A DNA stretch of 34,686 bases from Verrucomicrobium spinosum (GCA_020718645.1 DYRQ01000012.1:1-34686); one strand, 5' to 3'. Shown: positions 12,256 to 18,730, counted from the stretch's first letter. Program-made: numbers and translations. Notes: generated from the sequence alone by a model not told the origin.

Positions 12256-12897
12256 CTACTTCCCTCGTGGCTTGGCAAAAGTCCACAGAGCCCAGATGAG
12301 CAGACCGACGCCCATCCAAGAGACCCAAGTGTGAATGCCAGAGTGATCCGGACGCAGCGTGGTTTCGGGTTTTCCTGTGATGGCCAATGATGAGGTGATG
12401 GTGCTGATGACCGGGTCGTCCCACGCAGGCTGGTTTTTGTTCGTGATGACGAGGCTCAAGGTGAGACCGGGCTGAGCCACCAGCAGGTTGACGACGGTAA
12501 TCGGGTTGGTGGGATCAGCGCAGGTGGCGCGCACGCGCAAGGCTTCCCATTCCCCCACCATGGTTTCCTGCACTTCCTGAATGTCGAGGCGCTGGTCGGT
12601 CATGGATTTTTTGTAGCCGGACAAGAAGGTTTCTTTGCCACTGCCCCGCAGGGAGGGGCGTCCGGGGGAGGAGAAGGCATAGAGTGCCAGTCGCCGTTGG
12701 TCGTCAGCATCGTTGGCTAAGAGGATGCATTTGGTGGGATACTGGCTCTTGTCCAGCGTGGTCCAGCCTCCATCGTCCGGCAGCGTGATCGAGCAGCCGT
12801 GGCTCTGCAACGAGATCATCTCCCCGCACGACTGCCAAGGAGAGCAAACACTGAGCAGCGCAGCGAGGACGAGAGCGGCGAAAGTCGGGCGCAGCAT
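12256..12897 (-). CDS. secreted or lipoprotein-like hypothetical protein (last gene of the FHA operon)
   Basis: start ATG 12897 (TGA-c-ATG junction with the upstream gene) gives MLRPTFAALVLAALLSVCSPW... signal peptide; C-terminal hydrophobic segment WVSWMGVGLLIWALWTF; no recognisable domain. Confidence 0.5.
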   Translation of the reverse strand: MLRPTFAALVLAALLSVCSPWQSCGEMISLQSHGCSITLPDDGGWTTLDKSQYPTKCILLANDADDQRRLALYAFSSPGRPSLRGSGKETFLSGYKKSMTDQRLDIQEVQETMVGEWEALRVRATCADPTNPITVVNLLVAQPGLTLSLVITNKNQPAWDDPVISTITSSLAITGKPETTLRPDHSGIHTWVSWMGVGLLIWALWTFAKPRGK

Positions 12898-12898
12898 G

Positions 12899-13693
12899 TC
12901 AGGCGGGCGGTTGCTGTTGCGCAGAGCGAGCAAAGTAAGCTTTCACTGCCGGATCGCCGTAGAAGACCATGGCGAGGATGCCGACGATCAGGGAAAAAAC
13001 ATTACCGGTGATGATAGAGACAATTTCCATGATGGCGACATGCGTGGCGGGCTTGGTGGCGCGAATCGGGTCGGACAAAATTTTCGAGGCGTAGATGATT
13101 TCAAACACCGCCAGCGTGGCCAGATAGGCAGCCGGGATGATGGTGAACACGATGCCGACGAGGAAAATCGAAAGACCAGCGAAAATCCAACCCACAGCAC
13201 CGAGGGCATTCAAAATACCACTGATCAAGGTCAACACCGCGATCGTAGTCAGCTTGCCCGGCTTAACTCCGGTGGAGGTAGGGGTGGCTGGGGAGGGCGC
13301 GGGGTAAGGCGCGGGTGCAGGGGAGGCGTAGGGCGGCTGTTGGGGCTGGGGTGCCTGCGGCTGGGGCATGGTCATGGCAGGCAGCGCGTATTCGAGGCGA
13401 ACGCCCGGGCCGTCTTTGCCTAGGTAGAGAACCGAGCCCGGAGGTAAGGGCGAGCGGGTCACTTTTTGTGAGTTCAAAAAAGTGCCCTCGCGGCTGCCGC
13501 TATCTTCCACCCACCATTGTCCGGCGTTGTGGAAAACCGCACAGTGGCGAGGGGACACCGTTTTGTCCCAAGTGGGATCGAAGCGGATATCGCAACCGGG
13601 GTCGGCACCGATGGTGACAGGGAGAGAGGTGTGGACAGTTTTTTTGCCGCGCTCGAAGCCTCCGAGCCGTGTAACAGTAAGTTCTGGGTTCAT
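12899..13693 (-). CDS. FHA-domain (non-canonical) - Pro-rich linker - 4-TM membrane protein
   Basis: FHA-like TIGADPGCDIRFDPTWDKTVSPRHCAVF...SREGTFLN with SxxH present but the conserved Gly-Arg replaced by Gly-Ala; PQPQAPQPQQPPYASPAPAP linker; four hydrophobic helices including EIIYASKIL; ATGA overlap with the upstream paralogue. Confidence 0.7.
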   Translation of the reverse strand: MNPELTVTRLGGFERGKKTVHTSLPVTIGADPGCDIRFDPTWDKTVSPRHCAVFHNAGQWWVEDSGSREGTFLNSQKVTRSPLPPGSVLYLGKDGPGVRLEYALPAMTMPQPQAPQPQQPPYASPAPAPYPAPSPATPTSTGVKPGKLTTIAVLTLISGILNALGAVGWIFAGLSIFLVGIVFTIIPAAYLATLAVFEIIYASKILSDPIRATKPATHVAIMEIVSIITGNVFSLIVGILAMVFYGDPAVKAYFARSAQQQPPA

Positions 13694-15996
13694 ATTTTTC
13701 CTCGTGATGTGCCGGTGAATCCTATCGGGTCAATACCGTGCTGGCGCACGGCGTCGAGATCCATGATGAGAAATCTGGAGCCTGGTTTGTTGAATTCCGC
13801 CGCATTTTTCCTCGTGCGGTTGGTGGCCTCGGAGATGGCGCGGACAAAACTTTCCCCCGAAGGACCGGCGGCGCGGATCTGGTCCACCACACCTTGGAGC
13901 GCACCGTCGTCGCCAGCAGCAGCCAGCGGAGCCGCCCCGCGTGCATCCACACTGCCGAGCATAGTGGTCTCCAGATAGACCATGGTTTTCCCATCACGAT
14001 CGAGGGCAAAACCCATATACATGTGGCCGGGCACAGTGACGAGGAAGCTGGAGACACCAATCTTGCGGAGCACGCTGGCCATCAGCACGCTGCCATCTAC
14101 GCAGTTGGCTTGGGCGTGTCCCAGAGATTCCTCCAAGAAGCGGACATGCTGGCTGTAGATATATTCGGACTCCGCGGAGGGGGTGGTGATGTTACTGTAT
14201 TTCACCCCCCGTTTTTGCAGGGCGCTCCAGATGGCAAACGCCTCCTTCAACACGCCTTCCGGCGGTTTTTGATAACCCGCAAATTCGTTGACCACGCGTG
14301 TGTCCAGAGCCTCGCGCAGGAGAGTGTCCACGGCCGGGTGATGCTCGTTCACAAATGCCGCGAACATCCACATCATCGGGGTAACTCCAGCCTCTTGCGC
14401 CGTTTTGGCAGCGGGGTTTTGCACGACGATAAAGGGGCAGTCGTTGACCGAACGCACACGCACAGTGAGCGTTTTTTGTCCCAGGTCGCTATTGCCGAGC
14501 ATCACGCGAAAAGTGAGATTAGCCGGAGTGATCTGGCGGTTGTTTTTGAGTGTTTCGTAGCGGTAGTTGATTTTTGGGAAAACGAAATGTTCGATATTAC
14601 CCTGTTCGAGCGTGCCTTCGAACACGCTGGGCTCGATCAATTCGGAGCCAGTAACCTCCACACGCAGCGCGGTTCGGAATGCCGGGCTCTTGATACGGAT
14701 ACCGACGAGGCCGTTGGGATCACCGAGGCGGGGCTGCATCGCGGCAGAGGGAACAGCAGGCGGCACCACGGCGGCGGTGGCGAGGAGGTAGGAGGGAAAA
14801 ATTTGGTTGTCGGCGAAGACGACGGGTTCCCATTCGCCTGGGGTCTGGAGCAGGGATTTCCCGAGAGCCGCGGCCTGCTGTCCGCGCTCAGGTGAGCCGG
14901 GTGTCATGGAGGCGCCGGGCTTGGCTGCGAGTTGACCCTGCCACCACGCCTGCGCACCAGCGGAGGCCGCTGAGGTGGAAGCAGCGGCGGGCGCATTGAC
15001 CACTTCGTTGAGCGAAGGGAGTGTCGTGGTCGCGGCAGTGCGCGCACGATCCTCGGCATCGGCCAAGGCAAAAGCCCCCGAGATGAAATGGCAGAGCAGC
15101 ACGAGGAAAAATGCCCCTGCCACGATGCCGCCCACCAGTCCCGCTCCAAAACCGTGTCCCTGTGCAGGTGCCGGAGGCATGCCAGGTCCGATAGGCTGCA
15201 TGGCAGGACCTGCCAGATATTCTTTCACCTTCCTGTCTCCCATGAAAACCAGCGAAAGGATGCCGGTGATCAAGGAGAAAATATTCCAGAACAAGATAGC
15301 CACGATCTGCATCACTGCGACAAACAGTGCCGGTTTCCGGATGCGCGCAGGGTCAGGCAAAAGGCGTGTGGCGTAGAGGATTTCCAAAATGCCAAGCGAC
15401 AAGAGATAGACGGGCGGGAGTATCTGGAGCAGTGGGGCAGACTTGAAAATTGTCAATCCGGGGACACCCAGAAAGCCGAGCAGATTCAACACGATCGCGT
15501 AGAGGATGGCGGCGCCAAAAATCAGATCTATCGCAGCCAAGATATTGAGCACACCACTGATCATGGTCAGCACCGCCACCACTTGCACCGTGCCCGGACG
15601 GGCGGCCGTGGCTCCCATCCAAGGCTGGGCTGCATTGGGTGCAGTGTAAGAGGGTTGCTGCATCGCAGGTGAGGGAGCCTGAATTAAAACAGGCTCGCAG
15701 CGCACACGGGGTCCGCCGACACCCAACTCGATCTCAGTGCCCGAGGAGAACGCGGTCGGAGCCTCGATACGACGCCCGGCGATACGGGTGCCTTGCGAGG
15801 AACCATCGTCGAGCACGAACCATTGTTTTCCATCGTATTCCAGATGGCAGTGGCGCGGGGAGACAGTCTTGTCCCATGTGGGGTCAAAGCGGACATCGCA
15901 GCCGGGGTCGGTGCCCAGCGTGACGGTGCGGTTCTGGAGTGTCATGGGTTCACGCGAACCGAAGCCGACAAGTTTAGTGATTTTGATGCCGCTCAT
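13690..15996 (-). CDS. FHA-domain (non-canonical) - 4-TM - fifth TM - extracytoplasmic transglutaminase-like (Cys/His papain-fold) domain protein; tandem paralogue of 12899..13693
   Basis: N-terminal LGTDPGCDVRFDPTWDKTVSPRHCHLEY (about 50% identical to the neighbour over FHA plus 4TM); TMs including EILYATRLL; C-terminal ANCVDGSVLMASVLRKIGVSSFLVTVPGHMYMGFALD...YLETT resembling the transglutaminase-core Cys...His...Asp/Glu arrangement. Confidence 0.7.
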   Translation of the reverse strand: MSGIKITKLVGFGSREPMTLQNRTVTLGTDPGCDVRFDPTWDKTVSPRHCHLEYDGKQWFVLDDGSSQGTRIAGRRIEAPTAFSSGTEIELGVGGPRVRCEPVLIQAPSPAMQQPSYTAPNAAQPWMGATAARPGTVQVVAVLTMISGVLNILAAIDLIFGAAILYAIVLNLLGFLGVPGLTIFKSAPLLQILPPVYLLSLGILEILYATRLLPDPARIRKPALFVAVMQIVAILFWNIFSLITGILSLVFMGDRKVKEYLAGPAMQPIGPGMPPAPAQGHGFGAGLVGGIVAGAFFLVLLCHFISGAFALADAEDRARTAATTTLPSLNEVVNAPAAASTSAASAGAQAWWQGQLAAKPGASMTPGSPERGQQAAALGKSLLQTPGEWEPVVFADNQIFPSYLLATAAVVPPAVPSAAMQPRLGDPNGLVGIRIKSPAFRTALRVEVTGSELIEPSVFEGTLEQGNIEHFVFPKINYRYETLKNNRQITPANLTFRVMLGNSDLGQKTLTVRVRSVNDCPFIVVQNPAAKTAQEAGVTPMMWMFAAFVNEHHPAVDTLLREALDTRVVNEFAGYQKPPEGVLKEAFAIWSALQKRGVKYSNITTPSAESEYIYSQHVRFLEESLGHAQANCVDGSVLMASVLRKIGVSSFLVTVPGHMYMGFALDRDGKTMVYLETTMLGSVDARGAAPLAAAGDDGALQGVVDQIRAAGPSGESFVRAISEATNRTRKNAAEFNKPGSRFLIMDLDAVRQHGIDPIGFTGTSRGKI

Positions 15997-16039: not shown

Positions 16040-17578
16040 TTATCGGTTCTCCGACTGGTATCTGGCCTTGAGCGCCTCAGCGACGGCGGGGGCGATCTCG
16101 GGAGATTTTTCCGCGATCATGGTCAGGGCTTGCTCGGGCGAAAGGCCTTTGCGCATTTCGAGTTCAGCGAGTTTGAGGATGCGATCCGCCTGTTCTCCCG
16201 AGAGGGTGGAGAGGAGGGCTTGGAAATTCGAAGCGCCGCGCAACTTGAGGATATCCGCCTCGCGCTGCAACTCTTGCTCGTCCTCTTTTTTCTTCAGAGA
16301 GAGTTTGGCTTCTTTGACGAGACGCAGTGCCTCGACGCCTTGTTTGGCGAGTTCGACATCGGTCTTGGCTTGCTCCACTTGCTGTTCGCGTCCGAGTTCG
16401 GCGCGGGTGCGTTGTTGGTGGATTTCCTCGTCGAACTTCAGGCGGTTGCCTTCGATCTCGTGGCGTGTCTCGAGGATTTCCGATTGGTGCCGGAGTTTCT
16501 GTTCGTCGAGCCGGTTGGAGATTTCTGATTTGCGTCGCTCGTAATCTTGCTGGAGCCCCTCGAGCTGAGTCTTGTGTTCGGCGGCTTGGAGGAAGCGCTT
16601 GGCCTGAGCCTCGCGGTCGGCGCGATTGAAGCCGAGTTCGTGGGTGACCTGCTCAAATTCGTCCCGCAACATTTCTTCGTCGCGGTAGGCAGAGACTTTT
16701 TCTGCACGCAGCGCGTCGCGCAGACGGCGGTTGATGTCGTATTCGCGGGAGAGGCGGCTGATCTCGCCGAGTTTCTCTTTGAAGGCATCAATCGCTGGAC
16801 CGCCGAAATCCGCCAGTCGCACACCGACGATCGTGAGCCCGAAAGTCGCGAGGAGTGGCTGGAGTTTTTCTTGGAGAGAACCCTCGATCATCTCGCGGAC
16901 ATTCATCTCGATCATGAGGTCATCTACCTTCTTGTCGGCGACCATGGTTTGAACCGCGTTGCGGACATCGGCGTAGAAGCGGTTGGACAAATCTTGTGTC
17001 GAGAAACTGGCCGTGTGAGTGGAGATCAGTTGGGCGACGAAGAGCTTGGCGTCGGAGACTTGAAAGAGCAGGCGCAGACGGGCGTCTATCGGGATTTGTT
17101 GATCGGTGCGCAGTTCCGGCAGGACGAAATCCACTTCGGCAGACTGCATGTCGAGGAGGATAGCGTGGCATTGCCTGCCACCATCAAGACCGAGCAGTCG
17201 CTGGAAAAAGGAGTCGAGCGTGTGGTAGCCAGGCTCGAGTTGCCCGTGGAACTGGCCGTTTTGGAAAACCAGCGCGAGCGTGCCATCGTCCACTTGCAAC
17301 CCGTGGTGCAGAGCCTCTTTGGGGTTCTGGATATCCACGCGGGCGGCGAAGTCCGAGGGAGAACGGTGCCAGCGGTCGCTGTAGAAAGCTTTGCGTTGGT
17401 CGGGCGTCTGAGCCCCGCCGCATTTCCAGCAAAATTTCGAATCCCCACCGACGGAGGCGCTGCATTGAGGGCAACTGCTCCACGAGGTCGCGGAGGGGCA
17501 TCCGCAGGAGTTGCAGTATTGGGCATCCTTCGAGAGAGGATTGCCGCAGTTTGGACAGCGTTCGCTTAAAAATCCCAT
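16040..17578 (-). CDS. double zinc-ribbon - SPFH/band-7 (flotillin-like) - long coiled-coil protein
   Basis: CPNCG...CNSCG and CPQCS...CWKCG ribbons; SPFH-like core (ILLDMQSAEVDFVLPELRTDQQIPIDARLRLLFQVSD...); about 200 aa of E/Q/R/L-rich coiled coil; AAGGA RBS 7 nt before the ATG. Confidence 0.8.
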   Translation of the reverse strand: MGFLSERCPNCGNPLSKDAQYCNSCGCPSATSWSSCPQCSASVGGDSKFCWKCGGAQTPDQRKAFYSDRWHRSPSDFAARVDIQNPKEALHHGLQVDDGTLALVFQNGQFHGQLEPGYHTLDSFFQRLLGLDGGRQCHAILLDMQSAEVDFVLPELRTDQQIPIDARLRLLFQVSDAKLFVAQLISTHTASFSTQDLSNRFYADVRNAVQTMVADKKVDDLMIEMNVREMIEGSLQEKLQPLLATFGLTIVGVRLADFGGPAIDAFKEKLGEISRLSREYDINRRLRDALRAEKVSAYRDEEMLRDEFEQVTHELGFNRADREAQAKRFLQAAEHKTQLEGLQQDYERRKSEISNRLDEQKLRHQSEILETRHEIEGNRLKFDEEIHQQRTRAELGREQQVEQAKTDVELAKQGVEALRLVKEAKLSLKKKEDEQELQREADILKLRGASNFQALLSTLSGEQADRILKLAELEMRKGLSPEQALTMIAEKSPEIAPAVAEALKARYQSENR

Positions 17579-17660: not shown

Positions 17661-17945
17661 TCATTTTTCTAAAAATTGGAAATGGAAACGAGCCACGCGC
17701 AGATGATCGCCGTGGCGCAAACGCTGGCGCCGGGCCACGCGGTGCCCGTTGAGGTAAGTGCCGTTGCGGCTGCCGAAGTCTGCCACCCAATAGCGGTGGT
17801 CGGAGTCGGGCATGACCGCGCCATGCGAGCGGGAGACAGCGGGGTGTGGGAGCACGAGATCGTTATCGGGGTTGCGCCCAAAAAAGAGTGTGCCACCCAG
17901 AGGTTCCGAGTCGCCGTTGCCGAGCATGAGGCGGGCGTGGTTCAT
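17661..17945 (-). CDS. small soluble FHA-domain protein (canonical FHA)
   Basis: start at MNHARL (ATG 17945); LFFGRNPDNDLVLPHPAVSRSHGAVM...FGSRNGTYLNGHRV carries the canonical GR, SxxH and NG FHA residues; the upstream part of the track ORF is a probable extension. Confidence 0.75.
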   Translation of the reverse strand: MNHARLMLGNGDSEPLGGTLFFGRNPDNDLVLPHPAVSRSHGAVMPDSDHRYWVADFGSRNGTYLNGHRVARRQRLRHGDHLRVARFHFQFLEK

Positions 17946-17980: not shown

Positions 17981-18217
17981 TCAGCGCACGAAAAGGGGCT
18001 GGTCGGGCGTGTTGTGTTTCAGGGAAGATTCGCCCTGCTGCACGCTTTTCGTTTTGATGGGTTCGGGCTGCGGCTCGAGCACATACGATTTTTTCACCTG
18101 AAGCCCATCGCCGCACGGGGTGTGTCCGTAGTTCGGTGAGACAGGGCCTTCGGTGACTTGGCTGGCGCAGCCGGCAAGGAGGGCGATAGCGGGGTAAAGG
18201 AGGGTGATTTTTTTCAT
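17981..18217 (-). CDS. small lipoprotein
   Basis: MKKITLLYPAIALLAGCASQ, signal peptide with canonical lipobox LLAGC. Confidence 0.5.
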   Translation of the reverse strand: MKKITLLYPAIALLAGCASQVTEGPVSPNYGHTPCGDGLQVKKSYVLEPQPEPIKTKSVQQGESSLKHNTPDQPLFVR

Positions 18218-18271: not shown

Positions 18272-18730
18272 TTAGCGGACTTCGATGAAAACAGGTTGCG
18301 AGTTGAGTTCCGCTTGGATGCGGGATTCGGTGGCGAGGTTGGCAGGGAAGAAGCCCGAGCCATCGAGCCACTCGCGCATGACCACGCCGCCGACGGTGCG
18401 GCCGCGGCTGATGCCTTTGATGTAGTAGTTGGTCTGGCCGGATTTTTCCTCGACGATCACCTGGGCTGTCCCTGTGCCTTCGCGGGGGACATAGAAAGCT
18501 TCGCGTGCTTTGCCGAAGCCGTGTTTGAAGACAAAGACAGGTCTGATCTCGCCTCGCTTGAGGTAGAGCATGGTGGAGCCTTTGGGCGGGGCTTTCGAGT
18601 GGGGCGTCTTTTTGACGATCACCGTCTCGTCCATGTCAAATTTCTCTTGGGCCTGCAGGCTGGAGGCGTAGGTGGCAAACAATAGGACTCCCAACGCAGC
18701 AGTCAGAAGGTGGCTTTTTCTTGTTCTCAT
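18272..18730 (-). CDS. secreted hypothetical protein (first gene of the FHA operon)
   Basis: start at MRTRKSHLLTAALGVLLFATYASSLQAQ (signal peptide; ATG 18730, GGGAGA 7 nt upstream); the longer track ORF to 18922 overlaps yraN. Confidence 0.5.
   Translation of the reverse strand: MRTRKSHLLTAALGVLLFATYASSLQAQEKFDMDETVIVKKTPHSKAPPKGSTMLYLKRGEIRPVFVFKHGFGKAREAFYVPREGTGTAQVIVEEKSGQTNYYIKGISRGRTVGGVVMREWLDGSGFFPANLATESRIQAELNSQPVFIEVR

What the first reader, a model, noticed from the sequence alone, without database searches (positions are those of the whole stretch)
12899..15996. Tandem paralogous FHA-4TM proteins whose FHA domains lack the conserved phosphate-binding arginine
The two genes share about 50% identity at protein level and about 83% at DNA level (13561-13620 versus 15871-15920), so they are a tandem duplication. 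Both FHA domains read (I/L)G(A/T)DPGCD(I/V)RFDPTWDKTVSPRHC. The SxxH and later SxxGT motifs are present, but the canonical Gly-Arg is Gly-Ala or Gly-Thr. The third FHA protein in the operon (17661..17945) is fully canonical (GR, SRSHG, SRNGTYLNG). Loss of the pThr-contacting Arg suggests phospho-independent binding or a pseudo-FHA regulatory role. The Pro/Thr-rich linkers (PATPTSTG) could themselves be pThr targets for the canonical FHA in trans.
Basis: partly seen in the sequence, partly recalled or inferred. Interest (0 to 1): 0.55.

Follow-up and report, generated by a model that had tools for sequence, protein, structure and literature searches.

The report
Arginine-less FHA membrane protein pair
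Two neighbouring membrane-protein genes carry a well-folded phosphothreonine-reader (FHA) domain whose key phosphate-binding residues were swapped for a new conserved motif. They belong to an undescribed Verrucomicrobia family that joins this altered domain to membrane-anchored protease-like domains next to an SPFH scaffold gene and, in relatives, Ser/Thr kinases.

Summary
Genes A (12899-13693, 264 aa) and B (13690-15996, 768 aa) are adjacent paralogues (42% identity, E 1e-62), not about 50%. Each has an N-terminal FHA domain, a Pro-rich linker and a shared multi-helix membrane module. Four independent alignments and a confident AF2 model place Ala30 (A) and Thr29 (B) where the canonical Arg sits. 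The third FHA (17661-17945) is fully canonical.

The loss is not strain-specific. All 67 non-identical members of a subfamily, whose 17 genome loci are all Verrucomicrobiota, have Thr/Ser/Ala/Leu there and never Asn. All carry an invariant Trp-Asp in a loop motif, RFDPxWD(K/R)xV. Their nearest canonical relatives share the long loop but keep Arg and Asn. This is concerted remodelling of the binding face, not decay.

Most members are FHA-TM-protease proteins (trypsin, caspase, or a Cys-His-Glu domain as in B). They recur as tandem pairs, next to a Zn-ribbon-SPFH gene, and in relatives among receptor Ser/Thr kinases and PP2C.

A and B are not a recent duplication. Phospho-independence is plausible but unproven. 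This is a new variant of a known kind (non-canonical FHA) and is moderately interesting.

The parts
17661..17945 (-). Gene D: 94-aa stand-alone canonical FHA protein (GR, SRSH and SRNGT all present)
   Evidence: Pfam FHA 1.2e-19. Motifs located. Same gene call on public contigs. Not found in the related SPFH-linked loci.
16040..17578 (-). Gene C: 512-aa double zinc ribbon + SPFH/Band 7 + long coiled coil, with no TM segment
   Evidence: Pfam Band_7 3.7e-15 and DZR 7.8e-07. Maximum 19-residue Kyte-Doolittle hydropathy is 1.38. Orthologues at 55-57% identity lie directly upstream of Arg-less FHA genes in L006, L009 and L022. In L019 the homologue (32% identity) is fused to a trypsin domain.
13690..15996 (-). 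Gene B: 768 aa. Arg-less FHA, linker, membrane module, extra TM segment, C-terminal Cys-His-Glu peptidase-like domain
15688..15996 (-). B FHA domain (aa 1-103). Thr29 (15910-15912) replaces the canonical Arg. SPRH starts at aa 46. GSSQGT has Gln in place of Asn.
   Evidence: Pfam FHA 1.5e-12. Alignments. Codons located.
15211..15588 (-). B membrane module (aa ~137-262), homologous to A's module, with an 18-residue hydrophobic insertion
   Evidence: BLASTP alignment. Hydropathy.
15067..15147 (-). B additional predicted TM segment (aa ~284-310)
   Evidence: Hydropathy peak centred on aa 290-306. It corresponds to the single TM of the FHA-1TM-domain relatives P0002 and P0003.
13693..14844 (-). 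B C-terminal domain (aa ~385-768): beta-rich region plus a papain/transglutaminase-like core with invariant Cys632, His658 and Glu676
   Evidence: Invariant AQANC-DGS, PGH and LETT in 7 homologues, positions. NCBIfam anti-phage ProA positions 55-240, E 3e-20, far below that model's cut-off. One homologue has a marginal Transglut_core match at 7e-4. The AF2 model is poor and Foldseek found nothing significant.
12899..13693 (-). Gene A: 264 aa. Arg-less FHA, linker, membrane module, no effector domain
13385..13693 (-). A FHA domain (aa 1-103). Ala30 (13604-13606) replaces the canonical Arg. RFDPTWDKTV starts at aa 37 and SPRH at aa 47. GSREGT has Glu in place of Asn.
   Evidence: Pfam FHA 1.9e-15. 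AF2 pLDDT 94-98. Foldseek top hits are OdhI/GarA FHA, TM-score 0.87-0.89, rmsd 1.5-2.0. Register.
13259..13384 (-). A Pro-rich disordered linker (aa 104-145), includes PATPTSTG
   Evidence: pLDDT 51-64 with no secondary structure. Thr at 108, 137, 139 and 141 with +3 residues Q, S, G and K.
12914..13258 (-). A membrane module (aa 146-260). Modelled helices are 146-176, 185-206, 215-229/232-245 (kink at the conserved Gly-Asn) and 248-260.
   Evidence: AF2. About 45-50% identical to 88 clusters of stand-alone 150-250-aa membrane proteins; none of the three scanned passes a Pfam cut-off.
12256..12897 (-). Gene E: 213 aa, with an N-terminal signal-like and a C-terminal hydrophobic segment. Starts 1 nt after A's stop. 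No known family.
   Evidence: Gene call. No Pfam or NCBIfam match. Unrelated to the conserved cluster genes d1 and d2.
18272..18730 (-). Gene U: 152-aa secreted protein of unknown family, conserved upstream of the SPFH gene in relatives
   Evidence: Homologues at 39-42% identity upstream of C in L006, L009 and L022. Gene call. Sequence.
17981..18217 (-). 78-aa ORF with a lipoprotein-type signal (LLAGC), between U and D
   Evidence: Gene call. Sequence.

Best explanation
A and B are two anciently diverged members of a previously undescribed protein family whose genome loci are all Verrucomicrobiota.

Architecture. The family has an N-terminal cytoplasmic FHA domain, a Pro/Ala-rich linker, membrane segment(s), and usually a protease-like domain. 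That domain is inferred, not shown, to lie outside the cytoplasm. It can be trypsin-like, a caspase, a Cys-His-Glu transglutaminase-like domain as in B, or carry an HExxH motif as in P0182. A is an effector-less member.

The FHA domain. It keeps the full FHA fold, but its ligand face was remodelled in one concerted step. The pThr-clamping Arg became Thr/Ser/Ala, the Asn became Asp/Thr/Ala/Glu/Gln, and an invariant Trp-Asp arose in the beta4-beta5 loop, which was already three residues longer than usual.

Inferred mechanism. The domain no longer reads phosphothreonine in the canonical way. It acts as a dedicated docking module. It ties the membrane proteins to a cytoplasmic partner encoded alongside. 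The most likely partner is the TM-less zinc-ribbon/SPFH/coiled-coil scaffold C, which needs a membrane anchor. In relatives, the receptor Ser/Thr kinase, PP2C and canonical-FHA machinery may also be involved. Scaffold assembly and phosphorylation in the cytoplasm would then control clustering or activity of the membrane and protease-like modules.

What is shown: the fold, the residue replacements, their conservation, the domain architectures and the gene neighbourhoods.
What is inferred: the binding partner, phospho-independence, protease activity and membrane topology.
For: Fold:
- AF2 pLDDT is 94-98 over aa 1-100.
- Foldseek top hits are OdhI/GarA, Rv1747 and other FHA domains, TM-score 0.8-0.89.

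Missing contacts:
- Four concordant alignments.

Conservation in 67 non-identical domains:
- Arg position: T60 S5 A1 L1.
- Asn position: never Asn.
- Ser position: S42 A19.
- Invariant: F38 D39 W42 D43 V46 H50.
- Basic residue at position 44 in 66/67.

Concerted change:
- All 79 domains with W/F-D/E in the loop lack Arg.
- 101 long-loop relatives, none with that pair, keep GR; those listed mostly also keep SxNGT.

Architectures:
- Of 40 members, FHA 39, Trypsin_2 24, caspase 4.
- The B-type domain occurs in six more proteins, with an invariant Cys-His-Glu.
- P0182 combines the FHA, the same membrane module and an HEYFH motif.
- 44 of 49 members have a TM-grade hydrophobic segment after the linker.

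SPFH link:
- C orthologues lie directly upstream of these FHA genes in L006, L009, L022 and L019, and in the window.
- In L019 the SPFH protein is fused to the same kind of trypsin domain.
- C has no TM segment.

Tandem pairs of these FHA genes recur in L006, L020 and L021.

Precedent:
- T3SS SctD FHA domains lack the pThr residues and are regarded as non-canonical (PMC4045390).
Against: - No binding data exist, and no complex could be modelled.
- Relatives are embedded among Ser/Thr kinases and PP2C phosphatases: 11 of 17 genome loci have kinases within 10 kb, and PP2C is directly adjacent in L001, L006 and L022. That would fit a domain that still reads a phospho-mark.
- Conserved basic residues lie on or near the ligand face and could replace the Arg: R37 in 62/67, K/R44 in 66/67, and K/R at the Rad53-T106-equivalent position in 42/67.
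- SPFH adjacency is seen in only 4 of 17 genome loci, fewer than kinase adjacency.
- The L019 SPFH-trypsin fusion has no TM segment between the parts. This puts that protease on the SPFH side and conflicts with the simple cytoplasm/periplasm topology.
- The window itself has no kinase or phosphatase within 34.7 kb.
Confidence: 0.5

Rival explanations
1. The Arg-less FHA still binds phosphothreonine, or another phospho- or acidic mark, through relocated basic residues. Candidates are K/R44 in the beta4-beta5 loop, R37, and K/R at the Rad53-T106-equivalent position. It would then remain a true reader for the neighbouring Ser/Thr kinases, with altered specificity.
For: - The family is tightly linked to kinase, PP2C and canonical-FHA clusters.
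- Position 44 is basic in 66/67, position 37 in 62/67, and the position before the lost Asn is K/R in 42/67.
- Ser47 and His50 are retained in A and B.
- The structural neighbours are bona fide pThr readers, GarA/OdhI and Rv1747.
Against: - Three of the residues that canonically contact the phosphopeptide are gone or unconserved (Arg, Asn, and Ser in 19/67).
- B has Ser, not Lys/Arg, at the T106-equivalent position.
- From established mutagenesis (Rad53 R70A, Chk2 R117A), loss of this Arg alone abolishes binding.
- The loop also gained two invariant Asp residues (D39, D43), which do not favour phosphate binding.
Confidence: 0.25
2. The FHA domain is mainly a kinase substrate or regulatory switch, not a reader. 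The conserved Thr that replaced the Arg (60/67), or other conserved Thr (T8, T41, T45), is phosphorylated by the cluster kinases and removed by PP2C. This would toggle an intra- or intermolecular contact.
For: - Thr is strongly preferred at the former Arg position.
- Kinases and PP2C are adjacent in relatives.
Against: - A, the window's own member, has Ala there, and five others have Ser and one Leu, so phosphorylation at that site cannot be essential.
- There are no phosphoproteomic data.
- The window has no kinase nearby.
Confidence: 0.1
3. The FHA domains are vestigial. They would be decayed remnants serving only as a folded cytoplasmic cap or spacer with no specific ligand, and A would be a degenerating partial copy of B.
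For: - Canonical contact residues are lost.
- A lacks an effector domain. It also deviates from subfamily consensus at several conserved positions (T30A, E89Y, G93D, K/R96G) and sits on a long branch.
Against: - The ligand-facing loop is the most conserved part of the subfamily, with 15 invariant positions across 67 sequences of about 40-55% identity.
- The residue changes are perfectly correlated.
- A is intact and overlaps B's end in an arrangement typical of translational coupling.
- A is identical in three independent assemblies.
- A's FHA is not derived from B's.
Confidence: 0.05

Closest known systems
Non-canonical FHA domains of T3SS SctD (YscD/PrgH/EscD). From my own knowledge, T7SS EssC is a further example.
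   Same: Both are an N-terminal cytoplasmic FHA fold on a membrane protein. Both lack the full set of pThr-binding residues and are thought to mediate phosphorylation-independent assembly contacts (PMC4045390). The Pfam Yop-YscD_cpl model also matches A and B (37.4 and 36.9 bits).
   Different: - The window has no secretion-system genes.
- YscD ranks only 45th among structural neighbours, behind canonical readers.
- The subfamily has its own invariant loop motif.
- It is fused to protease-like domains and linked to kinases and SPFH.
GarA/OdhI (actinobacterial FHA regulators)
   Same: They are the closest structural neighbours (TM-score 0.87-0.89). From the literature listed (Nott et al. 2009 title) and my own knowledge, GarA also uses its pThr-binding face for phospho-independent binding to metabolic enzymes. 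This shows the face can recognise unphosphorylated partners.
   Different: GarA keeps all canonical residues, is soluble, and is itself switched by phosphorylation of its N-terminal tail. A and B lack the Arg and Asn and are membrane proteins.
Rv1747-type FHA proteins with phospho-acceptor linkers (Mycobacterium ABC transporter)
   Same: It is a membrane protein with cytoplasmic FHA domain(s) and a disordered Thr-containing linker. Rv1747 FHA-1 is a sequence and structural hit.
   Different: Rv1747 FHA domains are canonical and bind their own phosphorylated linker. Here the linker-bearing proteins have Arg-less FHA domains, Thr is not enriched or conserved in family linkers, and no kinase lies in the window.
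SPFH scaffold / membrane-protease pairs (HflK/C-FtsH, stomatin-NfeD)
   Same: An SPFH-family gene is conserved next to genes for membrane-anchored protease-like proteins. In one relative the SPFH protein is fused to the protease domain. From my own knowledge, these known pairs are the classic SPFH-protease examples.
   Different: - The SPFH protein here has zinc ribbons and no membrane anchor.
- The proteases are trypsin, caspase or transglutaminase-like, not FtsH or NfeD.
- The proposed coupling is through an FHA domain.
Long-loop canonical FHA repeats in multi-FHA proteins (P0106-P0135 type)
   Same: These are the nearest sequence relatives. They share the three-residue-longer beta4-beta5 loop and the FDPxxDxxVS..H pattern.
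   Different: They retain GR and mostly SxNGT, lack the Trp-Asp pair, and occur as 2-3 tandem repeats in 600-1000-aa proteins.

Membership tests
FHA domain (Pfam PF00498) | Sequence match above the curated gathering score | tested here: met
   A 57.4 bits, B 48.2 bits and D 69.5 bits, against a cut-off of 20.7.
FHA domain (Pfam PF00498) | FHA beta-sandwich fold | tested here: met
   AF2 gives pLDDT 94-98 with 10 strands over aa 5-101. Foldseek finds 69 PDB hits at E<=1e-3; the 50 listed are almost all FHA domains, best TM-score 0.89. B was not modelled and is inferred by homology.
FHA domain (Pfam PF00498) | Gly-Arg at the end of beta3, with Arg contacting the pThr phosphate | tested here: not met
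   Gly is present. Arg is replaced by Ala30 (A) and Thr29 (B) in four alignments. Across the subfamily the position reads T60 S5 A1 L1.
FHA domain (Pfam PF00498) | Ser-x-x-His in the beta4-beta5 loop | tested here: met
   SPRH is present in both A and B. In the subfamily His is invariant, but Ser is S42 A19 of 67.
FHA domain (Pfam PF00498) | Asn in the beta6-beta7 loop (S/T-x-N-G-T) | tested here: not met
   A reads GSREGT (Glu) and B reads GSSQGT (Gln). Asn is never found in 67 subfamily members.
FHA domain (Pfam PF00498) | Phosphothreonine-peptide binding | not testable with these tools
   This needs a binding assay. No model coordinates were available for superposition.
T3SS SctD/YscD cytoplasmic domain (PF16697) | Belongs to an SctD inner-ring protein within a type III secretion locus | tested here: not met
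   The HMM is just above cut-off (37.4 and 36.9 against 33.2) but weaker than FHA. No secretion genes occur among the 30 window proteins scanned. YscD 4a0e is only rank 45 structurally.
Arg-less 'GT' FHA-TM-peptidase family (delineated here) | Signature G[TSA]-x(6-8)-RFDPxWD[KR]xV[SA]xxH at the N-terminus | tested here: met
   Exact in A and B. Found in 49 proteins by pattern and 67 non-identical domains by HMM.
Arg-less 'GT' FHA-TM-peptidase family (delineated here) | Linker plus TM segment followed by a peptidase-like domain | tested here: inconclusive
   B has an extra TM segment and an invariant Cys-His-Glu domain, but the fold is not confirmed. A has the membrane module but no effector. 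In the family, Trypsin_2 occurs in 24/40 and caspase in 4/40.
Arg-less 'GT' FHA-TM-peptidase family (delineated here) | Neighbourhood with Ser/Thr kinases and/or PP2C | tested here: not met
   No Pkinase or PP2C match in any window protein scanned. Present in 11 of 17 related genome loci.
Arg-less 'GT' FHA-TM-peptidase family (delineated here) | Adjacent zinc-ribbon-SPFH gene | tested here: met
   C lies immediately upstream of B. The same arrangement occurs in L006, L009, L022 and L019.
SPFH-protease pairs (HflK/C-FtsH, stomatin-NfeD) | Membrane-anchored SPFH protein paired with FtsH or an NfeD-class protease | tested here: not met
   C has no TM-grade segment. The partner proteins are not FtsH or NfeD. 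Only the general SPFH-next-to-protease theme is shared.
Rv1747-like FHA plus phospho-acceptor linker | A canonical FHA binding Thr-phosphorylated sites in a disordered linker, with a cognate kinase | not testable with these tools
   The canonical FHA D and Thr-containing linkers are present by direct reading. However, Thr is not enriched in family linkers (median 5%), no +3 hydrophobic or Asp residue is present, and no kinase lies in the window.

The most novel reading that the evidence does not exclude
The Arg-less FHA may be a new recognition module that replaced pThr reading with a Trp-Asp-centred specificity. Its target would be an unmodified motif or a different mark. It would form the cytoplasmic handle of an inside-out signalling route in Verrucomicrobia.

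In this reading, receptor Ser/Thr kinases and a PP2C control assembly of a zinc-ribbon-SPFH scaffold. The scaffold clusters FHA-anchored membrane proteins and so activates their trypsin, caspase or transglutaminase-like protease domains on the far side of the membrane by induced proximity. Effector-less members such as A would act as adaptors or decoys.
Probability: 0.15. Interest if true: 0.7.

Novelty: new variant of a known kind. Interest (0 to 1): 0.42.

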